The notes beneath the pieces were generated by a model. The model was not told where the DNA came from. It worked only from the letters and a program-made list of their open reading frames with translations, and did no database searches. Source: Trypanosoma brucei (lineage: Eukaryota). Taken from it: a DNA stretch of 64,000 nt. The DNA lies in contig CH464491.1 in NCBI GenBank assembly GCA_000002445.1, forward strand, positions 4,192,001 through 4,256,000, written 5' to 3'. Position numbers and translations under genes: made by a program. Positions 16,364-61,600 of this stretch are shown one piece after another. Positions within the stretch are counted from its first letter, which is position 1, and every line of letters starts with the position of its first letter.

Positions 16364-16589
16364 AATGAAAATGTCAGGAAACCGATAGAGCATTTCTCAT
16401 TCATGCACACAATGAGACACAAATTAAACAAATCTTGGTCAGCTTTTGAACCACATTGCACTTACAATGGTACAAGTACTGGGCCTTCGAACTGACCTTA
16501 AGGAACCATCAGGGTCACCGCCGGGAACTTTGTAGGCGAAAGGAACACGAAATAGAGGGGAAAAAACGCAAGGAAGACGAAAACAGCAA

Positions 16590-16756
16590 CCTCCGATACG
16601 TATCTCGCCACATCGCCAGCGGAAAGTATCATGGTGCCTTAGCGATACCACCGCTGTACTGATGCTGCTTGGGTCGCCAAAAATCTCACACCACACTTTG
16701 GCCACCATTGTGCAAGCTACCGCACAGAAAGGGGCTGGTTGGTGGGTGTTGAGGCA
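16590..16756. repeat. Direct repeat copy 2 (~167 bp), 393 bp downstream of copy 1
   Basis: Same sequence as copy 1 with a few substitutions (tcaccaaaaa vs tcgccaaaaa; gtggaaactacc vs gtgcaagctacc). Confidence 0.9.
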
Positions 16757-30890: not shown

Positions 30891-30927
<37 letters not shown>

Positions 30928-34696: not shown

Positions 34697-36612
34697 TGTT
34701 TTGTTTTTTTTTTGGGGGGGGGCGTCACTCCGCCATATATATATATATATATATATCTTCCCCTGTTTGCAAATACGCCAGGTGGGGCCCACCTGCCTCA
34801 GAAATACTTGGCTACACTTAAGACGCTTTCGGCCAACACTACCTTGGGCCATGGTGCCACCCCACATCCCTTTACCTTCTGCTCCGGAGTAAATGGCATG
34901 CGGCAATCACATGATGTTTCAGTTATATCGGAAGAAGTATCCCGTATCTCTCCATCTTCAGGTGCCGTACGCAACCCACACAAGCGATGTTGTGGGAAGT
35001 GACGCCCTCTCTATCGGCCAGCCGGTTGGTTAAATTTAGCAAAGCTCTCGTGAACAACTTTCAGTAACGCACTTTCATGATGGCGCTCCCCCTCCTTGGA
35101 TTCATTCCATCTCTGCTCACTCCCTGTTGAAGAAGAAATGAGAGGCGTTACACGAGCCAGCGTTGCCATGTATTGCACGACTCTCCGAATCCGTTACTTA
35201 TTTGCGCTCATGCTCTTACTATTGGCATCATTGTTTGCTCAGTGAGAGTCCCTTTTCCTATTCCATTTTGCTGCGCAAATCCCTTTCAATTATCAACACG
35301 CTTGGATACAACTTGGCACCTAAAGCAAGTTTGTAACCGGTTTGGTTTCGGTCGCTATGAGTGCCTTAGCACGTATTTGCTGATGTGGCCCCATTGCTTC
35401 TTTCCCTTTTACTTCCTGCTATCCGTGCCGTCCGGAATCATCGTTCCCTTTTCTGTGTTTACGGACTCCCTCAAAACTATACAAATGTGTAAGAATGATC
35501 ATGAGGGCGCCGTGGCAATAAGGGCGTCTGTGTGCACAAGTGGCTTCGGAGCCATATTTTATTTCCCACCTACCCGTTTCTTTTCAGCCTGCCAATGTTT
35601 TCCCCGCCGTATGCTTTACTTTCGAGTCGAATCGAGAGTGAAGCAAATTGCACTCGCAACGTACCGCTGGATCACGAGTCCTCTCTTCCTTTGATTAGTG
35701 AGGTGGAAGTGTCGTGAATCCTTCAGGAGGTGTTACTAAGTTTGGTCCACCCTTTACCGACTTCCGCTGTTGATTCTAACGGCTGTATCATCCACATTCT
35801 CGGCTCCACCCTCCGGTGTGCTTCTCCGTGAAAGCGGCTAAAGTTACTGGAAATGATTGCATAAAAACCGCACAGGGACGATTCCCTCCACCACCGTGGT
35901 GAGTTGTACCTTCTCGGGGTGCTGCGATTTTGCCTCACGGTAACCTTCATAGTAATGTTCACGATTCGAGCCGGGAATATTATGGGGCAGTCTTTTCCCA
36001 CTCTCCAGCAGCAATGATGCCGCCCTCGTTTTCATTCCGGTCCGCCGCGCAGTGGGGAAAAGCGGAATGAATTAATACGAATGCGTATGCCTCTGCTGAC
36101 TAGTTTCATAGTCAGTCAACTTCCATGTGTGGCAGGCGGTTCCCACCTTGAATTCGAGTGGAGCTTGTTTTAAAGGGCTACAAAGAATGACATGTAGTTT
36201 GTAAAATATGGCTACTTTTGTCTTACACACGGATCCGTCCTTTATTTCTTTCCGGTAACTTTCACGGTACCATCTACAGTGACACACCCTCCCTGAACAA
36301 AAGTTGTATGATAATCTTCTGGCATTTCGCTACCCATCTACTCTTTTACTCGGCGTACCGAAGGAAACAATATTTGCACTGGAGGATGTTTCTGGCCTTA
36401 CAAATACATCTGTCCACAGTGATTTGTTTGCTTTTTTTTTCCTTTGTATCTACGATTCATCACTTTGTGTATGCACTACTTCCTTTTTCATTTGATTGGA
36501 GGGGGGGGGGGGGAGGGACTCATCATTTAGTCCTCATAGAGGAGGAAATGTTTATGTGCATTTCGAGGCCCCTCCCCCCCCCAAAAAAAAGAAAGCATGT
36601 GTCGCTTTTCTC
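34697..36612. repeat. Right arm of large inverted repeat (~1.92 kb)
   Basis: See left arm. Differences seen are a few SNPs (GWTKPSNTS vs GWTKLSNTS; LLLSVPK vs LLLGVPK), 1-bp differences in G/C homopolymer runs, and a different (TA)n length. Confidence 0.92.
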
Positions 36613-43020: not shown

Positions 43021-45942
43021 TTAACACAGTGCGGGGATATTCTCAAATAACCTCAACAGCCACTCAGTATCCACCGCCTTGTCCTTAAATAATGGGTCCG
43101 TTTCATACGTGGTGGGCAAGTTCTCCTTGACCATATCCTCGATCTTCTTCACATTAGGAACTCCGGTGACAGTCGACGATCCTCCAACGCCTCGAAGTGC
43201 GAGCGTAAGGTCTTTCAAGAGTACACTCCGCGTGACGAGCCCCCGCCTATTCGGGGGGCGGCTAACCTTCTTCGATCGCATGTCCAAATTTGTATGGGCT
43301 CCCTGCTTGCCATCCGCCTTTTCACCACTCAGACGAGATGTACGATCATTCATTCTACACGGCATCCATGACGTGTCATCGGGCATGGCTTCAACTACAC
43401 CCTGAAGCGGAAAGTTTACAAATTTCTTTTCGGTGCCACCACCCGGAGTGGTGGGTCCGTGAAAAGCACTACTTTCCTCTAAACCCGCCCACTCAGAGGT
43501 AAATAAGCAGTTGTCGTAGGTTTGGAGCGGCACCGTTGCTCCGTGAATTCGTGTGCTGACCAGATCCAGTGGCAGCTTGAAGTACGATGCAAGACTATTA
43601 GCCTCCTCATCCACAACGAAGAAGGTATTGCGGATGCTTTCTATCTGTGTGAGTAGTGTATCCATGGCCTGTGACGAAACCGAGACGAAATCGCCAGATG
43701 CGGGCGAAGAATAAACGGCAGCAAGTGCAAGTCTCAAATCTTCCAAAATGCCCAAAACTTGTGAGACCACAGAAGCGTCGCTATGGCAGATATCTGTGCA
43801 GCTAGAAGTGAAGTATTCATCCACACCACAATCGGCCAAATCCCAACCTTTATCTTTAGCTGAGCTCACGAACATCTTAAGGTGATCTTTCCACCTTTCA
43901 AGGATCACAAGCGCCTGTACGAGGGCGCCATTTCGGATGAGCTCCAGTCTAATCCAGTGGTGGCAAAACGTATTAAACGCCCGTTGGCAACGACGTGGGG
44001 TGAAGTCCTTGCTTTCCCTTACAGCGCGACGCACAACCCCCATAATGAGAGAAAGAAAATCCACACGATGCATTGTGAACCGCGCGACAAGTCGTATGAA
44101 CTGTGTATTAGTTACTTCTCGGTTTATACTACCCCACCGCATCCAGTTTACGGAGAGAAGTGTTACTTTTTCGAGAGCCGACACAACAGCATCAGTGCCC
44201 GCAAGCGACTCACCTTTCACATAATCCACGACCATGTTTCGTTGTTGCATCAGAAGCTCTTTCATTTTGCGGTGGGCACACTCCGGGTCACCAAGGTTGT
44301 TCAGCATATAATCACAGTACGCCACGCGCATGTAGAAGTTCCCGGGTAGTAGGTAAGAGACCCTCTCCAGAGCATCTCGCACCATCACTCGCCGTTCTCT
44401 CTCGGATAGAAGCGGTTGCTTCTCCAGGCAGAAATCCGCGTAATTACACCAGCATAACGGCTCATGAGGGAATATACTAGTCCGCATCAATAGAAAAAAG
44501 CGAACCCGTTCGTAGCCGAAAAGTTCGATGCCTGCGTAAGCAGAAGTGCTGCTCTCACGCTCGATGATGGTAGACCATACTAACCACGCCTCCACCTCGG
44601 ATCGATGCATGTGTTCCTCCTTTTCATCCCTCACGTCGAAAGCGCCGTCCACATGCAGCCGAACGGGTCGTGGGAGGTACAATGCCTTTGGCAAGAGATT
44701 ACGAGTCGAGCTGCTTTGAGACGAAAAACCACCAACCGATCCCATCAACTTGTTGAGCTCCGCCACGGCAGCTCTCGCCCTCACAAACCTCTCTTCCACT
44801 CGTCCTTCAGGTGGAGGTCTGCCCCGGTATTCCGTCTTCACGAAGTAGTCATAGTCTTCCTTAACCTCCTGAAGTTCCTGCAGGGGCGTGCGAAGCATCC
44901 TGATGTACAGCTTCCTCACCCACTCACGCCGTTGGTACATGTCAAGTATCTTGTCGCCTTTCCAGCGCAGAAATTTCTTCCATATATCTGTACTCGCTGG
45001 ACAATGCCCAACGTCCCGTTGCAACGCGGTGGTGAACACATTTTCCATCCCTGAGTCGTCCGGTTTTATGTAAACCTCCAGGAAATCAACAAACAGACGG
45101 TACAGCTCAACACTAAAGCAAAGTGGAAGGTGACGGAAGAAACAGTTCAACACTCGACAGTACGAACGATAGGTTTCCTTTGCGTCGTCTTCGTGCCGCT
45201 CATCCCACAAGTACCGGCCCTTTGCAACCTCATTGATTTCCTTACGTAAATAATACGTGACGAGGGGTCCACTCGTCGGAAAGAAAAAGGTGGCTGCATG
45301 CCAAACGTGCCGGACCGCGTTGATAGGATACTCATCCAAGGAATTTAGCAGTGATATCCAGGATGAAACACTGTAAACATTTTTATTTACCTCAATGAGG
45401 TCCGTTATCATCGATGGCGTGGGGTTTGGAAGTTGCACCTCCGCCCGCTTGTATTTTGATTCATCCAGAGTTAGCAGCGGTCCCGTCACAAGGGGAAACA
45501 ACACATTCCACGGTGAGAGGTCTCCAACACTATACTGCGAAAATTCCGGTAATGCTTCGATTCCTAAATCATCCAGCATCCGCTGGCGGGCCTCGCCAAA
45601 CGCTTGTTCCACGTCACTGTACACCGCAGAGAGCCGTTCCATCTCCAGTGTCTCTGACGTCTCATTCATCCATACCAACATTCGACCCACATCGTCCGCC
45701 ACCGTGTTCTCCACCTGAAGAGTGTGTTGCAGCTGATCCATCAGCTGCCTCTTCAACTCATCGCGCGTTTTATGGATGGCAACTAAGGCGGGGTGGCGAC
45801 AAAGAACCTGGCGGATGACAAGTAAGCACTTCTCATCTATGCGGGTGGAAGTCACCTCCTGCACGGGGGCCGCTGCCACCTTCCCTGTGGCGAACCGCAA
45901 GCGGTCCATCATGTCCCGAAGGCTACTCTGCTCATCCTCCAT
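43021..45942 (-). CDS. Large helical-repeat (HAT/TPR-like) protein (973 aa), possible RNA-processing factor
   Basis: Long PTU-strand ORF. Repeated W/Y-rich helical hairpins (WKKFLRWKGDKILDMYQRREWVRKLYIRML; EVEAWLVWSTIIERE; YCDYMLNNLGDPECAHRKMKELL) resemble half-a-TPR repeats. No catalytic motif. The functional label is tentative. Confidence 0.55.
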   Translation of the reverse strand: MEDEQSSLRDMMDRLRFATGKVAAAPVQEVTSTRIDEKCLLVIRQVLCRHPALVAIHKTRDELKRQLMDQLQHTLQVENTVADDVGRMLVWMNETSETLEMERLSAVYSDVEQAFGEARQRMLDDLGIEALPEFSQYSVGDLSPWNVLFPLVTGPLLTLDESKYKRAEVQLPNPTPSMITDLIEVNKNVYSVSSWISLLNSLDEYPINAVRHVWHAATFFFPTSGPLVTYYLRKEINEVAKGRYLWDERHEDDAKETYRSYCRVLNCFFRHLPLCFSVELYRLFVDFLEVYIKPDDSGMENVFTTALQRDVGHCPASTDIWKKFLRWKGDKILDMYQRREWVRKLYIRMLRTPLQELQEVKEDYDYFVKTEYRGRPPPEGRVEERFVRARAAVAELNKLMGSVGGFSSQSSSTRNLLPKALYLPRPVRLHVDGAFDVRDEKEEHMHRSEVEAWLVWSTIIERESSTSAYAGIELFGYERVRFFLLMRTSIFPHEPLCWCNYADFCLEKQPLLSERERRVMVRDALERVSYLLPGNFYMRVAYCDYMLNNLGDPECAHRKMKELLMQQRNMVVDYVKGESLAGTDAVVSALEKVTLLSVNWMRWGSINREVTNTQFIRLVARFTMHRVDFLSLIMGVVRRAVRESKDFTPRRCQRAFNTFCHHWIRLELIRNGALVQALVILERWKDHLKMFVSSAKDKGWDLADCGVDEYFTSSCTDICHSDASVVSQVLGILEDLRLALAAVYSSPASGDFVSVSSQAMDTLLTQIESIRNTFFVVDEEANSLASYFKLPLDLVSTRIHGATVPLQTYDNCLFTSEWAGLEESSAFHGPTTPGGGTEKKFVNFPLQGVVEAMPDDTSWMPCRMNDRTSRLSGEKADGKQGAHTNLDMRSKKVSRPPNRRGLVTRSVLLKDLTLALRGVGGSSTVTGVPNVKKIEDMVKENLPTTYETDPLFKDKAVDTEWLLRLFENIPALC

Positions 45943-46529: not shown

Positions 46530-49500
46530 CTACGTGGGTCTGTCGATGAATGCAACACCTACAATGCTTTCGCTTTCCGCAGTTTCAACCAGGCGACGCA
46601 GGATGTGGTTTCTCACATAGCACAGTTTTGCACAGCACTCGAAACCCACATCGACACAGCCCTTCCACATATTAGCAGTTGCTTCACGCACCATTAAAAC
46701 TGCACTGGCCCCCGGTTTCGCTGCAGCGGGAGCAGCCACTTCTTGAGGTGCTGATACCACTCTGCTGTTCTCACCGTCGTTACGTACGCGCACTTGCTGT
46801 ACTCTCCCAAAAAAAGCGAACACGGCGGGTGATAGTCTTGTCCAGCATCTCAACAGCAGCCTAAAGATTAAACACAACGTGGCAATATCGAAGCGCATGA
46901 AGAAAGCACCAAAAGAGTCGACTTGCCGTACGTGCGGCCAAGCCATTACCGCCAGCGCAAATGGGAAAACTATAAATGTTGTTGTCGTCATAAAAATAGG
47001 CATCACTGCGAAAGCTAACGCTTCAAATAGTGGCATGTGGTGACAACCACAGGAAAAGTAAAGCCTCACAGGCCCCAGGTCACTTTTCAGCTTATCAGTG
47101 AGGATTATGAGTGTACCTGTTGCCACCACGCCCACAACCCATAGAAAACCACACACAAAACCCGACGCGACAACACAGGACGGGGAAAGAAAAAGCGCCA
47201 AAACGGAGGAGACGACACAAGCACCAACCATGAAGGGAAGAGCCAGCAGCAACAACGCAGCAACCAATAGTAAAGTAAGAAGGCGCCCCATGCCAGGAAA
47301 TTTTAGGCACCTAAAGAGTATCATCATCTGCTCTTCCGTCAGTGTACATGCTTGTTCTTCCCGTCGGATGAGTGGTGTAATTTCTATTGCTACTCGTTGG
47401 ATGACCTCAGCGTCGTCGGCTGTGGCGTTCCGCTGCAATTCGTCGAGAGCAACCATGATTCTGCTACAACACAAATGGGTGTACCAAGTAGGCATACCCG
47501 TAATGAGAGTTAATTCTCGCTGAGCAACATTTACCCCATCCACGTACTGTGGGCCTGCCCAAATACCGAAAGATGAACTAAATAGCCAACGACACTTCCA
47601 CTCAGTAAACTGACGAACCCCCTTAAAGGGAAGCTCCACAATGCTCAGCATCCGACTCCATGCCTCGTTGTCATTTATCATGTAAACGGTTATTATACAC
47701 CGACACCCATAAAAGAAGGTATCGACAAAGCATGAGCTGCGGACCACCAGGCAGTCAAATAGAGCAAGGCATATCCCTATCCAAATGCAAGAACATATGG
47801 AACTGCATGCAACAAAAGCCGTGCAGCGCAGAGCCTTTGAGAGAAATCCTGTGATCGAGATACCATCCCCCAACGCCAGGCCCCTGACATCGAATAGCTC
47901 CCCCATCTTGTCACCCAAACGACTATCCACGTACCACGCGATATTAAGCGAAACGTCTACCAGCATAAACACACCTTTTGCCCACCTAAATGATGATAAC
48001 AAGTTGCGGGTTACCAGCAACACCAGCGGCTTGTCGTTCCGGGAGAAGAATTGATATGCACCGAAAGCGTATGGAAGAAACCCTCCGCAAATAACCGCCA
48101 CAATGAAATTTATTTCTGCACACACTCGAAGAAGGGCCCACAAATCAAGAAGTGCACAAAGCTGACGCAACCCAGTGACAGATGCAACCTTATGTAGCAT
48201 AGTCCAACGAAACCACCTTCCTGGAAGACGCGTAGCAAACCCTACGATAAAGAAAAACTGAGAAATTACGACAGCCAAGATGACATCACTTGCCGGCCAC
48301 ATCGAAGGCATATCCACCACGGAAACAATAACCGAAAGTGCGAAGAGAAAAAATAATACTGGGTCCTCAGCTTCCTCTCCATCCAGTGTCACACCTTGAT
48401 CGACCGTTGCATTGATTCCACTTCGAAGCACCCGCGCTGCCCCGAAATCAAAACACACTTCCCTCCGCTCTGATCCCAACACAGTCTTCAACGACTTCAG
48501 TACAAGGAGGGTTGTTGGGCGCTCATCCTCATGCCTAACAGATACGGGAGTCGTTATTACCTGCCACGCCCTCTTTTTATCCTCCGCAATACCAACGTTC
48601 CGGTCGTCATCAAAGAAGTCCATAGACAAAAAAAGAACCAAAAGCGTTGTTGTTCGAATGAAGAAGGTGGGTAGCACCAGAGCAGCCATGATGCACCGAA
48701 GCAGCGACAATGCTTCAAGTACGAAAGTTCGGAGAGGCACACAGCGAACCCCCTTCATGACAAAGACAACTATCCAAATAACAAATGTCAGTCTGGCAAA
48801 GTATAAAGGGGCATGCAGTAGGTCTGAAGAACCCAGTGCTTCAATGAGTGGCTTGACCATCGCACCCCGCATACGGGCCACATTCTCCGATGGGGACAAC
48901 GTTGCCAATAAGGTATCCGCAACTTCCCAAGCACGGGAATTACCGTCAACGGCTACCCAAAGCTCCCACATCTTAATGCGCACCACCTCTGGTGCTAGTA
49001 CGCACAATACGGTACAGAAAACGTTAAGAAAGAAGAAGGGGAGAACGAGGTGTAGCAACTCCTCCTTCAATTTTCCTCGGAGCGTTTTCGACTTGCCAGC
49101 ATCACTATGTGCAGCTTCAATAGCCTGTAAAACAACCCCATCGTCCCTGGGATGCACGGCCACCTCCACAATGAGACCCGATGTTGCACTAACCATCGGC
49201 TCCCCTTCGACATCACCTCCCTCTCCAGACGCATCATATTCGCCCTCTTTCCCCTCTTCGACGGCGTCGGTGCGCCAGTTTTGCAATTGATTTACCGCAC
49301 GGCCTTCGAGGACAGGCCTCCCCTGCTCGTCCGCGTTGGGTGCTTCCCTAACAAAGGGTTCGATACCGGGCCAGTGTTCCCGTACAAGTTTAAGTAACAT
49401 TGAAGCTGCAGTAAGTTTTGTAAGGACCCACACTGTATATGACAGAGCTTCTGTAGGTCCCCATTCACTCAACGTGTGGGTGTGTGTTAACGTTACTTTG

Positions 49501-49880
49501 ACAGGTGAATATATACTTCCAGCACCCTTTAGGGACCCCTCCAACACGAAAGTTAGCCACGAAAAGATGGGCACCAACAAAGAAATGGAAAGTATTCTAG
49601 CGTTTTCTCGAATCCAAACTCTTGAGAAAATCCATATAAGCGTTACCCAGCGATAATTAGTCGCACTGATGGAGTAACTTGAGAGCTTTGCGACCCTACA
49701 CGGTGTTCCGCACACTTCACAGATCAGCGACTTGCGGTGGCGCACCCATCGTGCAAGACACTTCGAATGCACATATTTGATGGACCCATCGCAGCAACAC
49801 GGACTAACACATTTCCCGGCGCTGCTGTGGCACATCCGGCAGCTGCGTTCTTCTCGTGATGACATGTGCTTAATGAGCAA
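46530..49880 (-). CDS. Doa10/TEB4 (MARCH6)-type RING-CH E3 ubiquitin ligase, polytopic membrane protein (1116 aa)
   Basis: N-terminal RING-CH (RINGv) finger CRMCHSS...CVSPCCCDGSIKYVHSKCLARWV...ICEVCGTPC. Then more than 10 hydrophobic transmembrane segments spread over ~1100 aa. This is the characteristic architecture of the ER-associated degradation ligase Doa10/MARCH6. Confidence 0.78.
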   Translation of the reverse strand: MLIKHMSSREERSCRMCHSSAGKCVSPCCCDGSIKYVHSKCLARWVRHRKSLICEVCGTPCRVAKLSSYSISATNYRWVTLIWIFSRVWIRENARILSISLLVPIFSWLTFVLEGSLKGAGSIYSPVKVTLTHTHTLSEWGPTEALSYTVWVLTKLTAASMLLKLVREHWPGIEPFVREAPNADEQGRPVLEGRAVNQLQNWRTDAVEEGKEGEYDASGEGGDVEGEPMVSATSGLIVEVAVHPRDDGVVLQAIEAAHSDAGKSKTLRGKLKEELLHLVLPFFFLNVFCTVLCVLAPEVVRIKMWELWVAVDGNSRAWEVADTLLATLSPSENVARMRGAMVKPLIEALGSSDLLHAPLYFARLTFVIWIVVFVMKGVRCVPLRTFVLEALSLLRCIMAALVLPTFFIRTTTLLVLFLSMDFFDDDRNVGIAEDKKRAWQVITTPVSVRHEDERPTTLLVLKSLKTVLGSERREVCFDFGAARVLRSGINATVDQGVTLDGEEAEDPVLFFLFALSVIVSVVDMPSMWPASDVILAVVISQFFFIVGFATRLPGRWFRWTMLHKVASVTGLRQLCALLDLWALLRVCAEINFIVAVICGGFLPYAFGAYQFFSRNDKPLVLLVTRNLLSSFRWAKGVFMLVDVSLNIAWYVDSRLGDKMGELFDVRGLALGDGISITGFLSKALRCTAFVACSSICSCIWIGICLALFDCLVVRSSCFVDTFFYGCRCIITVYMINDNEAWSRMLSIVELPFKGVRQFTEWKCRWLFSSSFGIWAGPQYVDGVNVAQRELTLITGMPTWYTHLCCSRIMVALDELQRNATADDAEVIQRVAIEITPLIRREEQACTLTEEQMMILFRCLKFPGMGRLLTLLLVAALLLLALPFMVGACVVSSVLALFLSPSCVVASGFVCGFLWVVGVVATGTLIILTDKLKSDLGPVRLYFSCGCHHMPLFEALAFAVMPIFMTTTTFIVFPFALAVMAWPHVRQVDSFGAFFMRFDIATLCLIFRLLLRCWTRLSPAVFAFFGRVQQVRVRNDGENSRVVSAPQEVAAPAAAKPGASAVLMVREATANMWKGCVDVGFECCAKLCYVRNHILRRLVETAESESIVGVAFIDRPT

Positions 49881-50154: not shown

Positions 50155-51975
50155 CTAATTTTCCTCCGATTTGACAGCGGCTTCTTCCAGTCCTTGGAAG
50201 CGCGGGAAGGTCTGAATGCCCAGCTCATCAGCAGCTAATGAAAGACGCTTATCCATCGTGCAAAGCAGCAACTGATCACATGCGATCCCGCGCACGTCGC
50301 GGTGATGGCGGCGCACATGGTACTTAATGAAAGCGAAGAGCATCGTTCCGTCGGATATCTGCTCTATACCCTGAAGTAACGCAGCGCTACGCTGTCGAAA
50401 GGCGTACTGAAGCGCAACACAAGTATTGAGAATGCGTAAGTCGGGATCATTCTCACTTGCCATCTCATTGAGACGTGAATATGCCATACATGAGATGACG
50501 GAAAGCGAAATGCAGGGGAATTCTGATGACAGAGCCAAGACTTCCACCGAAGGGTCCCTGAGAATAGCAGTCACACGACTCCACAGCAGCGTGCGCATTG
50601 CCCGCTTCAGCGGCGCAGCGGAGTTCCATACTAGTTGGTGGGCCTCACGTACAGTTGTAAAAGGAATGATAACGCGACGCAGAGACTTGCCTTCGAGGTG
50701 AGGATATTGCTTTCTTATGTGGACGTAAAAGTGGCTGAGCGCCAGGTTCTTGGACGCGCAGTGAATGAGAAAATTGGTGTCGAACACCAGCAGCACATCA
50801 CCTCGCTTAAATGCCTCATCCGCAAGCTCAGACACGGGACGCCCGTGGAGGTCATTCAATGACATTACCTTCGCGCAGATGTTGCTAAGTGAGTTCAGGA
50901 GTGGACGGTACTTCCGGTGTACCTCACTAGTTGATAGCAACCGAAATGTCTTGTCGCTTCTGGGAGGTGGACCAAAAGAATCATCTCGGGGGTGCATTCG
51001 ATACGTGATGTCATTAATAACATCGTGAAGAGTAAAGTTGTGGTATGGGTCGGAAGAGTAAAGACAGTCCACTAGACTTGTGTAAGTTGCCGTGATCCTT
51101 TGGTCGGGCTCTCTAGAAGAGGAAAATAACCCCAAATCCGCAGCTGCGTCCAACGCCGCTATCCACTGACCGGATTTTTGCAAGGGCTTCACTAGGGAGC
51201 CGAAAAGGGAAACATTTACCTGATGCCCCTCCGCCAAAGAGGAGGCTACAAGTCGCAGCATTTTGTCATATTTCCCCGCTACACCCAGAGCTCGAACAAT
51301 CGGTTTAATGTTTGAGGGAGCCATCGACATCAACGGCTGTTGGTGCAACACTTTAATGGCTTCACCCCAGCGGCCGTTAGACGACAATATGTTTATGAGA
51401 CTGCGCGTGTCGGTTATGCTCTGGCGCATCCCCGGATGTTTCTTGTAAAGATGTATGGCATGCTCCCACATGCCTGTGAAGGAAGCATACACCAAAGCTG
51501 ACCTGGTTCCCTGATAAGTTGTGGCGTCTACATCCTCCTCCATTATCCGCTTGATGGCGTAGAAATTACTATAGCGTTTAAATCTTTCCAGTGCTGTACC
51601 GACAAGGCGCGTGTGCGGACGTACCTGCCCACATATTCCCTTTATTATTCCGTAGTAAAACAATGATGCACTCCAAGAATTCTCCATTTTCAAAAGCCCT
51701 TGGTTTAGCTCCTCAGTTGTAGGCTGGTACACCCCCGAAAGCAGTTCTGTAACACTTTTATACACAGAGAGCACATCCACCCAAGTCCCGCAACCTGAAG
51801 AAGCCACGAGAAGCGGAAGGGCTCTCGTCGGCGGCGGAACCCGCTGCATAAACAAAAGGCCACACCCTGTCCCACCTTGCACTATTTCTACTTCCTCACT
51901 TTTCCCTCTATGTGAGGGGGATTTAATACGTTGAGGGTGGGGCGAGGTGGCTGCAGTAAACGATGGCAGTCGCAT
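50155..51975 (-). CDS. Helical-repeat (PPR/TPR-like) protein with C-terminal PIN/NYN-like nuclease domain (606 aa)
   Basis: The middle of the protein has ~35-aa helical repeats (WEHAIHLYKKHPGMRQSITDTRSLINILSSNGRWGEAIKVL; LVKPLQKSGQWIAALDAAADLG). The C-terminal ~200 aa has PIN-like acidic-residue spacing: VLLVFDTNFLIH ... IIPFTTVREAH ... DLRILNTCVAL ... CDQLLLCTMDKRL. This combination is reminiscent of protein-only RNase P (PRORP)-like or other RNA-processing nucleases. Assignment is tentative. Confidence 0.55.
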   Translation of the reverse strand: MRLPSFTAATSPHPQRIKSPSHRGKSEEVEIVQGGTGCGLLFMQRVPPPTRALPLLVASSGCGTWVDVLSVYKSVTELLSGVYQPTTEELNQGLLKMENSWSASLFYYGIIKGICGQVRPHTRLVGTALERFKRYSNFYAIKRIMEEDVDATTYQGTRSALVYASFTGMWEHAIHLYKKHPGMRQSITDTRSLINILSSNGRWGEAIKVLHQQPLMSMAPSNIKPIVRALGVAGKYDKMLRLVASSLAEGHQVNVSLFGSLVKPLQKSGQWIAALDAAADLGLFSSSREPDQRITATYTSLVDCLYSSDPYHNFTLHDVINDITYRMHPRDDSFGPPPRSDKTFRLLSTSEVHRKYRPLLNSLSNICAKVMSLNDLHGRPVSELADEAFKRGDVLLVFDTNFLIHCASKNLALSHFYVHIRKQYPHLEGKSLRRVIIPFTTVREAHQLVWNSAAPLKRAMRTLLWSRVTAILRDPSVEVLALSSEFPCISLSVISCMAYSRLNEMASENDPDLRILNTCVALQYAFRQRSAALLQGIEQISDGTMLFAFIKYHVRRHHRDVRGIACDQLLLCTMDKRLSLAADELGIQTFPRFQGLEEAAVKSEEN

Positions 51976-52681
51976 TCATAATTGCAGGTTCGCCGCGGGG
52001 GCAGGAAAGAGGAAGAGCAATAATGATAAGAACAGCGTAGAATACAATGTAGGCAAAGAAAGGTATCATATAAACCAATCAAGTCGAACAAAGCGACGGA
52101 TTATTAGGAACATGCGGTTCTTAACAACTAACATACACCAATAGCTCCCCTATATCTGTATTACCTCTTTAATGAAGTTACTTGACATCGTACACTGCGA
52201 CGGGGTTTCCCCCAATTTACAAGTTACAGTGAGGAATTAAGAGCAAAAAAAATAATTAAAAAAATCGGGTTAGTTTCTCCCCTTCTTTCCATAAATCAGT
52301 TCAAGATATAAAACAAATATACCCACTCCACATTACAGCATATAAAGGGAATAAAGGCAAAACAAAGCAAAGGATTTAATTACACACCCTTTCCCCCCTC
52401 TCGTAAGGGTTGCTGTACATTTGGATAGGCGCAAAAGTCCCTTGCACAAAGGCAAAAAGAGCATCACCAAAACACAGAAAGAAGGAAACAAATAGGAAAA
52501 CACAAAAGTAAGAAAAGTAGCTATAAAGAAGGAAGTAACAGCGGGAGTGATGTGGATAATGAAGTTTAAGTCTGTACAGTCAAAGACAACGATGCTTGAA
52601 AAGGTGAGGAGGTGGGAAATAGTCATAGAAATTTTAAAATATTTTTTAAAAATAGTAATTTTTACTTCCCCTTGTAGGGAG

Positions 52682-55600
52682 TCACGCAAGTTCCATTTCC
52701 ATTGCATGGTTAATTGCTATCATGAGCTTTTCTTTAAATAGCTTGTACGTATCATACGGAGGAATTGTCACAAGTGATGTGCACGATTGAGCCCGTGGTA
52801 GATGATCAATGCTCTCCGTTCCTTGTAGAACTCTGATTTTAGCAGCGAGGGGAGGCCGCTTTTGACCGCAGCCAAAACAAAGGAAAGAGGAGCGCTGACA
52901 AGGACTAAAATCGTCCATGACGCGCCAAAAAATTCTTTTGCTGCGCGGCGGAAGTTGTACTTCGAGCCACTGCCTCATCACTTCAGGCGTTATGTCGGGC
53001 TCACCGCACACCATTCGCTCCAGCTCCCTCCACGAAACACAGCGAACGACTCGCCTCGGTAAAACTGCCCAAAGGCCTGTGCGAATAGCGCTTAACTGAG
53101 CGTCTAGTGAGTGAAGCAGACAACTCTCCGCGACCCGACGGTAGTGAGCCACTTGGGATTCTCCGGTCATTGTTGCGTTGCTAAAAGCAGCGGAAAGGCC
53201 CTTGGAAAAGTTTGGTATGATTTCCTCGGCCGCTGTGCTGAGGAGAAAATCTCCATCCCCCACGATCTTCTCCGCCGCATTATCGACGTAAAGATAATAA
53301 TCCCTCACCATAAGTACATCTCCGACCATATACTTCCACAGAAAGGGTGAAAAATCCAAGGAAACTGGTGATTTGGCTACAATGCAGTGAGCCATTATTT
53401 TTCCGAGTAAATTGAAAAGTGCAAGGCTGTGTGCTGAGTTGGCGGAGCTGTTGGGTACTAACCCGACCCTTTGAGAATGTTCCGGGTAGTGGAAAAGTGG
53501 ACTCCGGTTGAAGGAGGTGTTCGGATAACACATGTCTGGATGGGTCATGATCTCCTCACTAAGGAAAGTCCACAACTGTCTATACGGGCCTCCAAGATCT
53601 TGAGGTGAGTGTCCACTGTGAGTGATGTGCAGCTGCACTTTGAAGAGTGGGTGCTGCCTAAACATCCTGGGCTTGAATGAGCCAATCTGTTTATATATTT
53701 GAGACAGTATGGAGCAGTGGAGAACCGCCTCGGCCGTTCGTGGGAGATCGCAGTACAGCTCTGTTACGTGCACTGTTATGCCCTGGGGCATGTCATTTAT
53801 CTCCACCTGTGGAATGGCCACTAAATACCGCCTCGTGAACGGGCGCCGAACAATACATTTCAGCATAAGAAAGGCCTCAGGCAAACACCCAACGACAACG
53901 TCATCGTCCAAGTTAATGAAACGACGAGCGGTTGCCATGCAGCTCTCAGCAACACGAATAACCTTTGTGTGAAGCATCCTTTCCGTGTCAGTAAGCGCCA
54001 TGATCATCGGGTAGCGCAGGAGAGGCCCCCTTTCATGCACACCAGGCTCGCAGTGGAACGGAGAGACACCGCTCGCACTAATCTCAGTTACCCTTGATGG
54101 CTTGGCCTCCTCCAAATCTGAGAGATATGATGCCAGTTGTTCATAGAACGAAATGGGCATGTACGGCAGGACGCTTTTTCCTTGGGAAGCGGCATCACCC
54201 CAACCTCGTACCCTGACGCAGGCAAAACGCCCAGCCAAGTCCGAGTAGTCACCGGGTAGGTAATGAAACTCATTGACATTCAAAGAGATCCGCATGCCGT
54301 CGTTCGTGCCAGCAGACACGAAGGCATATAATGGCCCATCTCCGCGTCCAACAGGGATAGGTACAAACGGTCCACGAATTCCGTCAACGGACCATGCCAC
54401 CACCCCCTTGTCATTGTCCAGAAGGCAACCAATCGTACACTTTGGCGACACTTCCTTTTCTGGTTTGTACTCTTCCTTTCTGTCATGGCACAAGAGTTCA
54501 TTCCCCGTAAATCCAAAACTGTATGCGTCACTTCCAATGGGTTGGTCAGGAATATGACTGTGTTGTTTCGCCCCCCAACCGACGACAAATGGCACCGAGA
54601 GTTTCTCTGGCAATGTAACTTCATAATAGTACTTTCCCCGAGAGGCCACAGCGCATCGGCTCACGACCTTTCCCACAACGAGAGAGCCACCTTCAAACTC
54701 CCCGAATAAACAGACCGCCTCAACAACCGCCGCATGAAGCATGCCATCGTGCTCATCGCTAATGTCTACAGCCTTTGGCAGCTGGCACCCCTCACGAAAC
54801 GCCTGGGCCAAATCCAGTAGGCACCGCAGTGGTGCCAAAGGAATATGGCGGACAGTGCTAGCGAGGAGTGACTCCGGGAGAAACATCACAAGCTCCACTC
54901 CCGCGGCAACATCCTCCGGAATCTCCGAGTAATCCGAGCCGTCCAAGGCATATTGGTCAACCCACCTCACCAGCATGGATAACAACTGAAGAAGAACGCC
55001 ATCGTGTCCCTCGCCGTAGCACCTAACAAGGCTGATAATGCATCCCAGAAGGTGTTGCCGGTACCTTCGGCAGCAGCGATGTGTTGCCGACACGATGGCG
55101 TGAAACGAATCCCAAAGAAGCGATGGGAAAGGTACCACGATTTCAGGGCGCAGTAAAACATATTTAGTGACGAGATGCGATAAAGTGACACAATCCCATG
55201 GCTTTGTTGAGGGTTCTGAAATGGTCCGCAACGCTCCACACAAAAACCTTTGCAACAGCGCTCCATCTGCACAAGTAGCAAACAGTTTCTCCGCCATAGG
55301 ACTGGAGTGGTAAAGCACCACTGCTTGAACGTCGTCCCCACCAGCGCCGAGAAAGGAAAGATAGATGTGACGGGAAAGCAGCACCACAAGCCGGTGTAGC
55401 GCCGACCCAACACCGCGTTTATACGACTTTTCCACCCCCGCTAGCGTATTTGTCGGGGGTTCAGTGGGGTCCCTCAAACCAGGAAGAGGTTCAACGTGAG
55501 CCAAGTCAGACAATGGAGGTATTCGCACCGTGTCGCAGCGGAAGGAACGCAACACAAATGCACTAGCACTTCCTTCTCTTGGCTTCCACTGCCCCGAAAC

Positions 55601-58600
55601 CCTCAGACCACTGGCGTCTACGGTACCCTCCGCAATTACAATTCCAACGGAACGCTTTCCACTTGCAAGGACGGACCCGACTTCTTCCGCAACTTCCTCA
55701 AATGAGGAGTGACACCCTCTCATTAGAAGGCGAGTGACACAATAAACAGTTTGAAGAGGAGCAGTAAACAGTAGAAGGAATAAAGATCGGCTGCTGCGCC
55801 TAAACTTTCCCAACGCGGTGTATTTCATAGTACCGGTAGGAAGGTTAACGTAAGCTTCGCCCATGCAGTTTGCCTTCAACTGCAAAGAAATTGTGCCGCG
55901 GACTCCACCAGCAGCGCTAATTTCTCCTTCCCACACACCTTCTATTGTCATTCTCTTCATGGGATTGTTGAGACACGTCACCCGCAGCCCATGCTCAAAA
56001 AGGCTGCAAGGCAATCCACTGCTTGATGTCCACCACACATTCCCGGCACATTGTTTCACTGGAATGCAATCCAGCGTACTGAGTGAAACTCTTGAATGCG
56101 GTGCGTGAATCTTCACGCCCTCAAATACATCTGCAGTATTCTGTTTAACGACGCGAAAGATTTCCCCTCTGTGCACTCCACCAATTGCACAAACCAACAT
56201 GTTGTACTTCACTGCGCAAAACCATGAATTACACAGAGATGAAGGTACAAAACCATCGAGGCGCTTATCGCCCAACTCAGCCAGGTATGTGCAACTTTCT
56301 GTGGCCATCACAGCATCCTGTAGGTCAGAAAAGAATTTCGCCTGAACATCGTTGCTTATTTCCACTGCTGCCAAGTGTCTCAGAATATCCACAAGTGCCG
56401 TACGGTGTGGGAGAACAACGGAGGAAAGGTCCTTGTTGTCGCACAACCCCTTTAGAATCAGCAAAAATCGGGATATCGCAAAGCCCTCTGCCACTGTTGG
56501 GCCACACTTTTCCAGGTTGCAGTTAAGCTCCCGTTCCTCAGATACCACACCATACGGATCAACCAACAGCTGTGAAAAAGGGACATGCCGAACTGCACCC
56601 CCTGCCGGAACATACAAAACCGCTTCATCACGATCAACAGCCACAACCCTGCCCTGAAGAAGCTCTCCGTTATCAAAGGTATATACAAGCACACCCACCA
56701 TTGGGGAGTCTGTACATGGTACAAGCGGGACGCGGCAGTGCTCTGGCCTAAGCAACTTTACCCCACCGCTACACGACACACTCACAACGCCATCAGTAAC
56801 GTCATCCACAACTCCTTGAATTGTTCCACCACATTCTGGCAAGACGGAGGCTGTAATGTCCTTCTGTCCGAAGAGTACGAACCCTACAAGGTTAGGCTTT
56901 GATGAGCTCACATCAAGTGAGGCAATATCGCAAGACCCAAGCGTCGACCAATCACGTGCTATCACCACTTCACCACACTGGAAATCTGCTTCAACAGTGA
57001 TTGTCGAACTGTTTTGGAAGCCCCCTACAGAACGAGCAGAAAATCTTACTGCCTGATTCAGCGTCGAGTCGTTGCAGAGAGCCACAATTCCTGGTGTCCC
57101 CGAAACCAACTTCCCTCGAAGCGACACTGGGGAGACACCGAGTACTTCCGAGGCCTCACCAATACCAATGAACGTAGGTACAACGGGGTCCAGCGGCTCT
57201 CCATCGGTTGTATTAATCGTGACGGTGAAAACCGCCCGATGCTTATACGCAATCCCCCATACTGTCAGAGCGTTGATTCCAGACGAAACCGCAACGCAAT
57301 GCATCCGTCTTTCATCGACACAGCATCCCTCACTTTTAAGGTAAAAGGCGCATACAGCAGGAATGGCTACACTCATTCCCACATCTAGTTTGCTTGGAGG
57401 GGTATTGTTGCTTACCAGCAAGTTGGATCCCATCTCGGTAAAAGGATGGTGCGAGTGGGCGCAGAGCATAAAGCAGGACCTGCAAAGTTGATAGTCGACG
57501 CATTCATTGCACTTGTACCATTTCAACTGATTCATGTCAGTTGTCAGCTTCATCACAGGGCAGGAGTCACATCTTTTCTTGAATTTTGCCAGAGACAGCG
57601 AAAAATGTGGCAGCTGCGTGGTTGTGCGCGCTACCTCCTCATTGTTCCGTGAAGGTAAAATAACGGCCACAGCGTCTGTATTGTAGAGATGAACGAAAGG
57701 GAATAACTCCTCGCCCGCAGGGACCTCGTCGTAGATCAATCCCAAAGGAGTTTCCTCCTGATTCACACCTTTGCGGTACGCATGAATGGTCCCTTCGTCC
57801 CGGTTAACATCAAGACGAACGATATCACCGCTGACAATGATGCAGTTAGGCTCCGCTATAGTACGAAATTTTGCATTGGTGCAGAGGTGAGGTAAACGCC
57901 ACGGTGCAACATCCATATCGTGCAGCGCCCACGCCTCCGGGCTTCCCAATGTGAGGTCACGCCGTCTCCAACCAAAGGAAGCGTTGCAAACACCAACGTA
58001 ATATCCTCCACCCAATATTTGTCCTACCTTTCCTCGGAGAAGTTGAAAGCGCAAGCTGAACTGACCTTTAAGTGGGACTGACGGCTCTGCGATTGCAATG
58101 AAGGGGGCTGACGAACCCTTCGTGTCGTTCAAAACTGTCGCCAAACTACCGCAGAAGTACGGCGGGAAACGGAAGCAAGGATTAGATAGGGCCGACGAAA
58201 AAGTATGACCGCAAGGAATACGTGACGGCTCTAGTAAAGTAGTATCTCGTACAAGTCGTTGAATACGATAGAAATGCATCGCGCGGACACTGAAAAGCGA
58301 CCGATTCCATAGCTCTTTCTCCTCCTCAAGGATGCGCTCCCGCTGCCGCACTTCGGTTAAAGAAAGCGCCTGTGTCGTAACCAATGGTGTAACAAGGCGC
58401 CTGAGAGCACCAACCAGGGCGTTAACACATTGACGCAATCCCCCTAGTGAGTGACCAGGCTGCTCCCAACGCAGCGCGGTGTGCATGAAACGGCTATTGT
58501 GTGGACGAAGATTGCCGAGGTGCTCGCAGAACGTGACACCTTCACAAGAAACGCTGGCAAAATGGCTCATAAGCCGGCGGCACGACACAACCGCCACCTC

Positions 58601-61600
58601 ACCATCGTGCCCACAAATCTCGAAGAGACGCGGATCTGCCACACCCCCAAACAATGCCAACGTGACAAAAGGAGTGACGCAATCATTGAGCTCACCGCAT
58701 ACGGCATCAACAACGCATTGCTCAAAGGGCTTCAGCGTTATCATACTCCGCAGCACATCGGTGGCTGCAGCCCTGAGAAGAGTGACGGGGGATATAGGTG
58801 ACATCATCTCGCCTGACCCAATAAACGCGGAGGCATCGTCGTTGTAAAGCTGCACGAAGGGAACCAAATCGATATCCGATGGAACATTGACGAAGAGTGT
58901 CTGGACGAAAGCATTCTCGCGGTAAAATTCCAGTTCCCGTTTCTCCCGCCGGACACGCACACGAATCGACTCCACACTCCCAAAGGACCGCTGAAAAGTA
59001 TTGGGCGCCACGTGCGGGTTCGTTGCGTGCTGCAGCTGCGGTGACATATCGTGGAGGGCCCATACAAGAGGCGGGTTTAAAGATTTCCATCCTTGTGCGG
59101 TGCTCGTGGAAATCGGAAACGGGAGATGCGCAGCAGCAACACCAACATAGTACCCCCCTTTCAGTGAACTACCAAGTGGATATCCTCTCCGGCAAATACG
59201 TACGGTAAACGAGGTGTCGCCGACCCTCGGCAGAACATTTCCCAGCACAACGCTCCGCTGCGCGCCCGAGCGCATCTGTGCCAGCTGTGCATGCGCAATC
59301 GTGACACATCGAGTATCGCACTTCAACCAGCGCAAAGAGAGGGGAATATGTTTGCGCTTACGGTCTCGAGCATTTGCATGCACGAAGAGCATATTTACAA
59401 GTTGATGCACGACACCAGTATCGTGGACATGGCTGATATGGGGAACAAGCTCCGCCAACAGTCCAACGGTTGCGAGCTGAACTGAATGCAAGGATGGTGA
59501 CATCAGAACGCGTACTGTGCTTAACAGCATTTCCTCCAGTGCTTCCGGAAGGGGACGGACCCTCACGATCCGCACAACGAAACGTAAAGTAGCAATATGC
59601 CGAAGAACTGACCACTCCGCAAATGGAGGAAGGCCGTCAGCAGCAAAGTAAGACCCAGAACTGTCTCGTATCTTGGCACCATCCTGTGTCACGAAAGACA
59701 TTACATTACCCAGGTGCCGACAAACAGCGTCACAGCATTGAACCCAAAACGGCGTCATGCATGGATTAAAGTTGCATTGCAACGTAGAAGAGTGAGTGGT
59801 GATGTAGTGTAGAGCAACCTCCGAAGCGAAGGCGATGCTGTAGTGCGTTGGGACGTCAGCGAAACCGGGAGAGGCCCAAAGTCGGTTTAGGTCATAACGG
59901 AATGGTCGAAGCCCAAAGTTAACGGTAAACCCCACACGCTTCTTGTCGCCCATACGAATGGTTGGATAGAGGGAATCCTCTCCACCCTTGATACCACCGG
60001 CAAAAGACATAAAGGTACCGTTGAGAGTAAAGAAAACACGACGGGTGAATCGGACAATACCGCAGCCGACCGTGTCGCCATAACCGAAGGGTGGAAGCTT
60101 AATAATGTGTGTCAAGCCAGAATCCTTGTAGAAATACACGGATTCATCAGGTCGGTCCACACAACTGTGACAGTTGCTGATGCAGACCATGAAACTGCAG
60201 CACGAAGTTGAAAGTTCCACCTCGTAGTACAGCACCGGTGGGACATCGGTTAAATGGGGAGTGAGAGGTGGGATGCTCCACGCCTCATCCGCTCGCAGTA
60301 CGAGTGGGGGCGAGCCGGCAGCTTTCTCGACCAGCACGCCCCTATCACACAAAGAAACACTAAGGTTAGGTATGACAACAGAGAATCCGTTTGAAGCAAG
60401 ACGCCTGTCGTACACTTGATCAGCCGGGGCTAACACCCCGCCTAATACCGGGTGGCAGCTCCTCAAACTGGCAGTAGAGTTACGCTTCCATCGCGTCTGC
60501 GCTCGCCATGTCGCTGGTAGCCTACAAACTGGCATGTGTATCGACTCCGCGAGGCGAATGAGAATGTTAAGCACCTCAGGCGCTGATGCTCTACTAAACA
60601 ATTCGCAGTCCGTGGGGTCCCACGGGTGACACATGATGCTCAGTAGCTGAATGGTCAAGGACCCTTGAAGGGCCAGCGTCGTTGTTGCGACTTCTGAAGA
60701 CATGTACACAGGGAGACTGTTGATGAGAATGCATCGGCACTTCCTCAACACGTCATAGAATGCCACACGCACACGAGACTCCAAATCCACTCCAGAGCCA
60801 GTGAAATTTTCTAGAATATGCTTCCCTTTGGCTCCTTCATATACGGAAAAGACAACGTCAAGGATCTTTCGGACTGTGCGCGGCTCATATTCTACCGCCG
60901 GCTGTGATAGTAGCGTAGAAAGTATATGAAACCCCCGAGCAACGTTTAATGCGGCAACCGTTTGCTCCACCAAAATGTCTTCAAGTTCGTCATGCGTACC
61001 GCCCTGCTCAACGAAATCGCGTAACTGGCTCAGAAGCTTCCGGGCGCCCTTCATCTCCTCTGGTTCTTTTTGATCTGGTGTCATGCTGTCACTATGAGCA
61101 ACCTCGTCGCACGGCGGTACCGCAGCCTCGCCTTCTCGTTCCTGTGGCGGATACGGCACAAACCTTGCTTGAAGTGGCAACACGTCGCTTTGGCACGCAA
61201 TACAGCGAACTGCCCAGTCGGCAAAATCCACAATCGACCGACGTGTTGCGTCCTTCTCAACTCCCTGAAGCAGATTCCCCCATTCCAAGGAGAACCCGCG
61301 CGACTCTAACTCTGCCTCTGCTTCATGTGGTTCCATGCCGCAATGTATAAGAAGCGCCAGAAGTGCCGAAACAACAGGCCGCATCGACAGGTTGACCTTA
61401 CCTTGCACACTTTGCCAGACCTTATCTGATAGTGTTTTTCCAGCACCCCTAGCGCCAAGGATATCCGACGCGATACCCAAACCCCCTTTTCGGCCAGGAA
61501 CATACAACTGATGCTTTGATAGAGCTTCGCTGTTGAGCCCGTGATGGAACAGCGGCGCGAGAGGAAATGCACGTGGCCTAGGAAAAACCACCAAGTGCTT

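What the first reader, a model, noticed from the sequence alone, without database searches (positions are those of the whole stretch)
50155..51975. Helical-repeat protein fused to a PIN/NYN-like nuclease domain - candidate RNA-processing endonuclease
PPR/TPR-like repeats followed by a domain with the acidic-residue pattern of PIN/NYN nucleases recall protein-only RNase P (PRORP) and other organellar RNA-processing enzymes. The N-terminus is Ser/Pro/Arg-rich (MRLPSFTAATSPHPQRIKSP...), which could be an organellar targeting sequence. If the acidic residues are conserved this would be an active nuclease.
Basis: inference. Interest (0 to 1): 0.5.

Follow-up and report, generated by a model that had tools for sequence, protein, structure and literature searches.

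The report
Known trypanosome mitochondrial PPR–PIN protein TbPPR9
This gene is Trypanosoma brucei Tb927.11.16250 (TbPPR9), an already-studied mitochondrial RNA-binding protein needed to keep the COX1 and COX2 mRNAs stable; it carries an apparently intact PIN nuclease domain whose activity nobody seems to have tested, and it is not a protein-only RNase P.

Summary
The ORF at 50155-51975 (minus strand, 606 aa) is real. It is 100% identical to T. brucei TREU927 XP_829682 and matches Tb927.11.16250 in chromosome, strand, length and mass. The literature reports that this gene, TbPPR9, stabilises COX1/COX2 mRNA and co-purifies with TbMba1.

- PPR-type helical repeats run from about aa 50 to 327. They are sequence-detectable from about 130 to 306.
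- The PIN acidic quartet D399/E444/D512/D575 is invariant in 24 family members, down to about 22% identity.

Two points are not supported:
- It is not a PRORP. It has a canonical PIN fold rather than NYN, no zinc-binding domain and no PRORP/NYN profile hit.
- The quoted Ser/Pro/Arg-rich N-terminus is a T. brucei-only extension upstream of the conserved start M43. It probably lies upstream of the splice-acceptor site.

Best reading: a PPR-guided mitochondrial RNA factor with a catalytically competent PIN endonuclease acting on COX1/COX2 transcripts. Catalysis is inferred, not shown. Novelty: already known. Interest is modest.

The parts
50155..51975 (-). Annotated ORF Tb927.11.16250 (TbPPR9), 606 aa plus stop codon
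   Evidence: ORF listing. 100% identity to XP_829682.1. The supplementary table lists Tb927_11_v5.1:4301330-4303150(-), 606 aa, 67.981 kDa. The computed mass of the window ORF is 67.98 kDa.
50155..51849 (-). Probable true CDS, starting at M43 (564 aa; MQRVPPPTRALPLLVASS...)
   Evidence: All nine other Trypanosoma orthologues align from M43, and the 564-position family profile begins there. The preprint's domain coordinates (PPR 150-210, PIN 355-550) fit M43-based numbering.
51850..51975 (-).
   Evidence: Column conservation is 0.08, against 0.44-0.59 in the regions from M43 to the end of the PIN domain. It is absent from the orthologues. The first AG after the polypyrimidine tract lies inside it.
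52003..52017 (-). Main polypyrimidine tract upstream of the ORF (CTCTTCCTCTTTCCT); candidate trans-splicing signal
   Evidence: Script scan. Its role is inferred from the general rule that the trypanosome spliced-leader acceptor is the first AG downstream of a poly-Y tract (established knowledge).
51951..51952 (-). First AG downstream of the poly-Y tract. It lies 3' of ATG1, and no ATG occurs between it and ATG43
   Evidence: Its use as the acceptor is inferred; no RNA data were available.
50995..51828 (-). Alpha-solenoid of about 8 helical hairpins (aa 50-327)
   Evidence: Helix pairs in the full-length AlphaFold model. pLDDT is 70-86 over most of aa 130-280 and lower elsewhere.
51058..51588 (-). 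Sequence-detectable PPR repeats (aa ~130-306, about 5 motifs)
   Evidence: TIGR00756 and Pfam PPR at aa 192-212. Designer PPR and maize PPR10 PDB hits.
50800..50994 (-). Linker: loop plus a long helix (aa 328-392) that packs onto the PIN domain
   Evidence: PIN-region model helices H10-31 and H42-52 (aa 349-370 and 381-391), with pLDDT mostly above 90.
50200..50799 (-). PIN domain (aa 393-592), PIN_4 type
50776..50781 (-). D399-T400 (DTN motif, directly after strand beta1): first catalytic acidic residue
   Evidence: Invariant in 24/24 sequences. Codons verified. Position relative to beta1 from the model.
50644..50646 (-). E444, in the helix after beta2: second acidic residue
   Evidence: Invariant in 24/24. 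Codon verified.
50440..50442 (-). D512 (N/D-P-D-x-R-I-L-N motif, N-terminus of a long helix): third acidic residue
   Evidence: Invariant in 24/24. The neighbouring D510 is not (15 D, 9 N). Codon verified.
50251..50259 (-). T573-x-D575 after beta4: fourth acidic residue (classic PIN 'T-x-D')
   Evidence: Both invariant in 24/24. Codons verified.
50308..50319 (-). H553...R556 in the family-specific KYHVRR motif: invariant basic residues in the helix preceding beta4
   Evidence: Invariant in 24/24. A role in RNA or phosphate binding is only inferred.

Best explanation
The gene is Tb927.11.16250 (TbPPR9), a nuclear-encoded mitochondrial protein of Trypanosoma brucei.

Shown here:
- It consists of an N-terminal PPR-type alpha-solenoid, a helical linker and a C-terminal canonical PIN domain (PIN_4 type).
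- The four metal-binding acidic residues and the flanking T residues of the PIN domain are invariant across the whole family.

From the literature:
- The protein is mitochondrial.
- Its depletion selectively destabilises COX1 and COX2 mRNAs.
- It co-purifies transiently with the ribosome-exit/insertase factor TbMba1.

Inferred mechanism:
- The PPR array selects COX1/COX2 transcripts.
- The PIN domain makes a Mg2+/Mn2+-dependent endonucleolytic cut in their precursors or flanking/untranslated sequence.
- The protein then stays bound to the product. This protects it from exonucleases and delivers it to membrane-associated mitoribosomes.
- On this view it is a natural fused 'helical-repeat guide + PIN nuclease', convergent with PRORP but not a member of that family.
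For: Identity: (same chromosome, strand, 1821-nt span, 606 aa and 67.98 kDa).

PPR array.

PIN fold.

Active site retained:
- D399, T400, E444, D512, T573 and D575 are invariant in 24 sequences whose overall identity falls to about 22%.
- 12 of the 14 invariant positions in the family lie in the PIN domain, which is the most conserved region (0.59 against 0.44-0.51 elsewhere).
- The acidic residues sit at the canonical PIN positions: after beta1, in the helix after beta2, at a helix N-terminus and after beta4.

Function and partners: the Mba1 preprint 10.1101/2022.12.21.521360 and the reviews PMC6789859 and PMC11514114.

Precedent that a helical-repeat + PIN fusion can cleave specific mitochondrial RNAs in T. 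brucei: engineered PUF-SMG6-PIN ASREs (PMC4574754).
Against: - No nuclease assay or catalytic-mutant data were found. The reported knock-down phenotype is loss of mRNA, not precursor accumulation, as far as the held citing papers describe it.
- The original 2012 paper could not be read.
- The positions equivalent to the PPR 'code' are non-canonical (R191, K224, G259 in the alignment), so no target sequence can be predicted.
- Some PIN domains with intact-looking sites act mainly as binding modules.
- My recollection of current models of kinetoplast mRNA end formation is that ends arise by transcription initiation plus 3'-5' trimming, with no endonuclease required. This is my own knowledge and was not checked here.
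Confidence: 0.55

Rival explanations
1. TbPPR9 is a pure RNA stabiliser / translational activator, like yeast Pet309 or chloroplast PPR10. The PIN domain then serves only as an RNA-binding or protein-docking module, for example towards the Mba1/Letm1 network or the roughly uncharacterised complex it resides in, without cleaving RNA.
For: The only reported phenotype is destabilisation of COX1/COX2 mRNA. Non-catalytic PIN domains exist: SMG5 PIN, and the Nmd4 PIN domain, which was crystallised bound to the Upf1 helicase domain, appear among the structural neighbours. A PIN-like fold also occurs in the structural mitoribosomal protein mL67.
Against: Non-catalytic PIN domains typically lose the acidic quartet. 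Here D-E-D-D plus the T400 and T573 motif residues are invariant over deep divergence and are the most conserved part of the protein. That pattern is hard to explain without catalysis or at least metal binding.
Confidence: 0.3
2. It is a surveillance nuclease rather than a processing nuclease. Recruited to translating, membrane-bound mitoribosomes via TbMba1/TbLetm1, it would cleave aberrant, unedited or antisense RNAs (an SMG6-like role). Loss of COX1/COX2 mRNA on depletion would then be indirect.
For: About ten-fold enrichment in the TbMba1 pulldown. The closest eukaryotic structural neighbours are the NMD factors Nmd4 and SMG6.
Against: The depletion phenotype is selective for two never-edited or minimally edited mRNAs. 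Removing a decay nuclease would be expected to raise RNA levels, not lower them. No 14-3-3/EST1 or other NMD-type domains are detected.
Confidence: 0.1
3. [quoted passage not shown] This was the first reader's leading analogy.
For: It shares the gross layout of N-terminal PPR repeats plus a C-terminal PIN-superfamily metallonuclease.
Confidence: 0.02

Closest known systems
TbPPR9 / Tb927.11.16250 (Pusnik & Schneider 2012, Eukaryot Cell 11:79; Mba1 preprint 10.1101/2022.12.21.521360)
   Same: It is the same gene: chromosome 11, minus strand, 1821 nt, 606 aa, 67.98 kDa. The domain coordinates agree once numbering starts at M43.
   Different: Nothing differs in sequence. This analysis adds family-wide invariance of the PIN active site, a high-confidence PIN model with canonical-PIN (not NYN) neighbours, a solenoid of about 8 hairpins rather than '2 PPRs', and evidence that the annotated first 42 codons are probably not coding.
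PRORP (protein-only RNase P: PPR + split zinc-binding domain + NYN nuclease)
   Same: An N-terminal PPR array fused to a C-terminal PIN-superfamily metallonuclease, with an organellar RNA substrate.
   Different: The nuclease is PIN_4/VapC-SMG6-like, not NYN. The active site is D-E-D-D, not four Asp. The connector is helical with no Zn site. No sequence similarity is detectable. The substrate implied by the phenotype is mRNA (COX1/COX2), not pre-tRNA.
Artificial site-specific RNA endonucleases (ASRE: engineered PUF repeats + SMG6 PIN domain)
   Same: A helical-repeat single-stranded-RNA reader fused through a linker to an SMG6-type PIN endonuclease. ASREs work inside T. brucei mitochondria (PMC4574754).
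   Different: ASREs are synthetic, use PUF rather than PPR repeats, and destroy their target. TbPPR9 is natural, and its presence stabilises its presumed targets.
Plant organellar end-processing systems: RPF-type PPR proteins working with the NYN nucleases MNU1/MNU2; PPR-SMR proteins
   Same: A PPR specificity factor combined with an endonuclease for maturation or stabilisation of specific organellar mRNAs. MNU2 is mentioned in PMC10941002; the rest is from my own knowledge.
   Different: In plants the guide and the nuclease are separate polypeptides, or the nuclease is an SMR domain. Here the nuclease is a fused PIN_4 domain.
Yeast mRNA-specific factors Pet309 (COX1) and Pet111 (COX2)
   Same: Nuclear-encoded, PPR-type, mRNA-specific factors for cytochrome oxidase subunit mRNAs, linked to the Mba1/Mdm38 membrane-insertion network. 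Pet309 is mentioned in PMC11514114 and the network analogy is drawn in the preprint.
   Different: The yeast factors have no nuclease domain.
Canonical PIN nucleases (VapC toxins, SMG6, Nmd4, Nob1, Utp24, Rrp44 PIN)
   Different: Sequence identity is 10-17% and no sequence-level hit to any solved PIN was found. TbPPR9 has a large helical insertion between beta3 and the third acidic residue, an invariant KYHVRR motif, and the fused PPR array.

Membership tests
PPR (pentatricopeptide repeat) proteins | Tandem ~35-aa helix-turn-helix motifs recognised by PPR profiles | tested here: met
   TIGR00756 scores 23.9 bits against a cutoff of 20. Designer PPR hits at 1.7e-18 (single sequence) and 4e-43 (family profile), and maize PPR10 at 1.4e-25. 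Pfam PF01535 alone is below its cutoff (20.1 against 25).
PPR (pentatricopeptide repeat) proteins | Readable nucleotide-specifying residues (positions 5 and 35) of P-class motifs | tested here: inconclusive
   In the alignment to dPPR10, position-5 equivalents are R191, K224 and G259, which are not the canonical N/T/S. No target can be predicted.
PPR (pentatricopeptide repeat) proteins | Organellar localisation | not testable with these tools
   The literature treats it as mitochondrial. The true N-terminus from M43 is basic, with no acidic residue in the first 24 aa. No targeting predictor was available.
PIN domain, PIN_4 type (Pfam PF13638) | Profile match above the curated threshold | tested here: met
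   28.7-29 bits against a gathering score of 21.9, covering profile positions 1-128 of 132. 14 of 15 divergent members match.
PIN domain, PIN_4 type (Pfam PF13638) | Alpha/beta/alpha PIN fold | tested here: met
   [not shown]
PIN domain, PIN_4 type (Pfam PF13638) | Four conserved acidic residues forming the metal site | tested here: met
   D399, E444, D512 and D575 are invariant in 24/24 sequences and sit at the canonical topological positions.
PIN domain, PIN_4 type (Pfam PF13638) | Metal-dependent ribonuclease activity | not testable with these tools
   Needs biochemistry. No report was found in the searchable literature.
PRORP (protein-only RNase P) | C-terminal NYN-type nuclease domain with four conserved Asp | tested here: not met
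   [not shown]
PRORP (protein-only RNase P) | Split zinc-binding domain (3 Cys + 1 His) connecting the PPR and nuclease domains | tested here: not met
   The family has no invariant Cys. The best-conserved Cys columns reach 18-21 of 24 and are scattered. The connector is helical. The definition comes from PMC10941002.
PRORP (protein-only RNase P) | N-terminal PPR domain | tested here: met
PRORP (protein-only RNase P) | Pre-tRNA 5' leader cleavage | not testable with these tools
   T. brucei RNase P activity is attributed to two other proteins (PMC10941002).
SMG6/EST1-type NMD endonucleases | PIN domain combined with 14-3-3-like/EST1 domains | tested here: not met
   Pfam reports only PIN_4, PPR and TPR.

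The most novel reading that the evidence does not exclude
TbPPR9 and its relatives would be a natural class of PPR-guided PIN endonucleases, so far seen only in trypanosomatids and in unidentified, more distant sequences. The fused PIN_4 domain would make a site-specific cut that creates or licenses the mature COX1 and COX2 mRNAs, coupled to Mba1/Letm1-dependent co-translational membrane insertion. This would be a third, independent invention of a 'PPR + nuclease' enzyme, alongside PRORP and PPR-SMR. It would also reintroduce an endonucleolytic step into kinetoplast mRNA biogenesis.
Probability: 0.35. Interest if true: 0.55.

Novelty: already known. Interest (0 to 1): 0.25.

Why it matters
The gene and its phenotype are published, and its PIN domain has been noted both in a preprint and in UniProt naming, so the finding adds no new element to the genome. 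What remains open is mechanistic. The protein is described as an mRNA stabiliser, yet its most strongly conserved feature is an intact nuclease active site.

If the PIN domain is active, it would identify a missing endonuclease in kinetoplast mRNA maturation or quality control. It would also be a natural template for programmable PPR-PIN RNA cutters. The start-codon correction (M43) matters for anyone tagging, expressing or predicting import of this protein.

Tried and rejected
1. Two word-indexed homology searches, with the divergent alignment and with the distant member P0026, returned only Trypanosoma sequences or a self-hit. Generic PPR words probably crowded out the 8000-candidate limit.
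2. I tried to name the deepest-branching homologues. Cluster look-up named only Strigomonas culicis. Whether the family extends beyond trypanosomatids is therefore unresolved.
3. The primary papers (Pusnik & Schneider 2012; Pusnik et al. 2007) are not held. Their content is cited only through other papers and, where marked, from memory.
4. Guessed old-style gene IDs (Tb11.01.79xx) and UniProt Q381G1 found no papers.
5. The PIN-domain profile against PDB sequences gave only chance-level hits, so classification had to rest on structure prediction.
6. The first full-length model was mediocre (pLDDT 62). It was used only for helix counting.
8. Reading a PPR code was rejected because the positions are non-canonical.
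9. Opposite-strand ORFs inside the gene (50426-50701 and 50765-51028) were treated as chance ORFs, because the minus-strand frame is conserved across species.

Full report
**What is there.** The window is Trypanosoma brucei brucei TREU927 chromosome 11.
- The 606-aa ORF at 50155..51975 on the minus strand is 100% identical to XP_829682.1 / EAN80570.1 / UniProt Q381G1, which lies on a 5.26-Mb contig.
- A supplementary proteomics table lists Tb927.11.16250 at Tb927_11_v5.1:4301330-4303150(-), 606 aa, 67.981 kDa.
- The window ORF spans the same 1821 nt on the same strand and has a computed mass of 67.98 kDa. The gene identity is therefore settled.
- The flanking genes lie on the same strand, as expected for a polycistronic unit. 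One is a RING-variant membrane protein and the other is a 3769-aa HECT/SPRY ubiquitin ligase.

**Domain architecture.**
- Pfam finds PIN_4 at aa 396-589 (28.7 bits, gathering score 21.9) and a sub-threshold PPR motif at 192-211.
- NCBIfam's PPR model passes its cutoff.
- Against PDB sequences, the single protein hits designer PPR proteins at 1.7e-18 over aa 163-306. A profile of 15 divergent family members hits them at 4e-43 and maize PPR10 at 1.4e-25.
- The full-length AlphaFold model (pLDDT 62) shows about eight helical hairpins from aa 50 to 327. The earlier description of 'two PPRs' is therefore a minimum.
- A model of aa 340-606, built on a 22-sequence alignment, is confident (pLDDT 92.4, pTM 0.90). 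It shows a long linker helix followed by a five-stranded alpha/beta/alpha domain.

**Which kind of nuclease domain.**
- The bacterial HARP RNase P scores 6.1 and the Marf1 NYN domain 5.6. No eukaryotic PRORP appears among the 60 best.
- Foldseek agrees, with Nmd4 and SMG6 on top.
- At the sequence level the PIN profile finds no solved structure at all. No family member hits the PRORP or NYN Pfam models, while 14 of 15 hit PIN_4.

**Is the active site kept?** The exhaustive profile search found 17 representative clusters below E=1e-30. Everything weaker matched only the PPR region.
- In a 24-sequence family alignment whose identity to the T. brucei protein falls to about 22%, only 14 positions are invariant, and 12 of them are in the PIN domain.
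- The invariant positions include D399-T400 (just after beta1), E444 (helix after beta2), P511-D512 (helix N-terminus) and T573-x-D575 (after beta4). These are the topological positions of the PIN D-E-D-D metal site.
- H553 and R556, in a family-specific KYHVRR motif, are also invariant.
- The PIN domain is the most conserved region (0.59 mean column conservation, against 0.44-0.51 for the other regions from M43 onward).
- This pattern argues for a functional catalytic or metal-binding site. It does not prove activity.

**The N-terminus.**
- All nine other Trypanosoma orthologues align from M43 (consensus MRRGPS..ALPLLVASS). T. vivax has an unrelated extension.
- The main polypyrimidine tract (window 52017-52003) is followed by no AG until 51952, which lies downstream of ATG1. 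No other ATG occurs before ATG43 at 51849.
- Trypanosome spliced-leader addition normally uses the first AG after the poly-Y tract (established knowledge). ATG1 is therefore probably not in the mature mRNA.
- The preprint's domain coordinates (PPR 150-210, PIN 355-550) also fit M43-based numbering.
- The real N-terminus is basic and has no acidic residues for 24 aa. That is compatible with a short trypanosomal presequence, but no predictor was available.

**What is already known.**
- The Mba1 preprint (10.1101/2022.12.21.521360) describes Tb927.11.16250 as a trypanosome-specific protein with two PPRs and a PIN domain. It was enriched about ten-fold with TbMba1, and its depletion specifically destabilises CoxI and CoxII mRNAs.
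- Reviews name the protein TbPPR9 and cite Pusnik & Schneider 2012.
- That primary paper is not held. My recollection of its abstract (exclusive mitochondrial localisation, loss of cytochrome oxidase activity) is from memory only.
- No paper in the library reports a nuclease assay or treats 'PPR-PIN' as a class.
- The protein has no counterpart among the chains of solved T. brucei mitoribosome or assembly-intermediate structures.

**Mechanism.**
- Shown here: the architecture and the conserved active site.
- From the literature: the mitochondrial location, the COX1/COX2-specific phenotype and the Mba1 association.
- Inferred: the PPR array binds COX1/COX2 transcripts and the PIN domain cuts nearby. 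The bound protein then shields the product and hands it to membrane-bound ribosomes.
- The main rival is that the PIN domain is a non-catalytic binding module. The invariance of the acidic quartet counts against this.
- A surveillance role is possible, but it fits the loss-of-mRNA phenotype poorly.
- PRORP membership fails on two defining features, the NYN domain and the zinc-binding domain (definitions from PMC10941002). T. brucei already has two PRORPs that account for its RNase P activity.
- The nearest functional analogue is man-made: PUF-SMG6-PIN 'ASRE' enzymes, which cleave chosen mitochondrial RNAs in T. brucei (PMC4574754).

**Verdict.** The gene is already known, so novelty is low. 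The remaining interest lies in the untested catalytic role of a deeply conserved PIN active site in a protein known as an mRNA stabiliser, and in the likely mis-annotated start codon.

Noticed in passing
window 29136-30914 and 34735-36513: A perfect 1779-nt inverted repeat (100% complementary) flanks a 3820-nt spacer. The spacer carries the window's only sizeable plus-strand ORF (32158-32826, 222 aa, leucine-rich-repeat-like) and has reversed GC skew (+0.13 to +0.19, against negative values elsewhere). It looks like an inverted or palindromic segment inside an otherwise minus-strand polycistronic unit.
   Followed up: partly
window 16210-16751 (minus strand): A cluster of H/ACA-like snoRNA genes, TB11Cs5H1, H2 and H3. 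H1 and H2 are present twice, about 393 nt apart, so this is a tandemly duplicated snoRNA cluster lying between protein-coding genes.
   Followed up: no
[not shown]
   Followed up: no
window 52682-63991 (minus strand): A 3769-aa ORF immediately upstream, with a C-terminal HECT domain and a SPRY domain. It is a giant HECT-type ubiquitin ligase.
   Followed up: no
window 46530-49880 (minus strand): A 1116-aa ORF immediately downstream, with an N-terminal RING-variant (RINGv/MARCH-like) domain followed by many hydrophobic segments. It is probably a membrane-bound E3 ligase. The listed TTG start is likely an artefact of the bacterial-code ORF caller.
   Followed up: no
window 18333-20189, 21632-23848, 39562-41679, 43021-45942 (all minus strand): Other recognisable genes in the unit are a Tc-38 (p38) family protein, an MCM helicase subunit, a cyclic-nucleotide-binding-domain protein and a Suf/HAT-repeat protein.
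   Followed up: no
T. vivax orthologue P0003 (aa 1-74) and window 51850-51975: Both the T. brucei and the T. vivax gene models carry unrelated N-terminal extensions upstream of the conserved Met. This suggests longest-ORF start-codon annotation errors in both species.
   Followed up: partly
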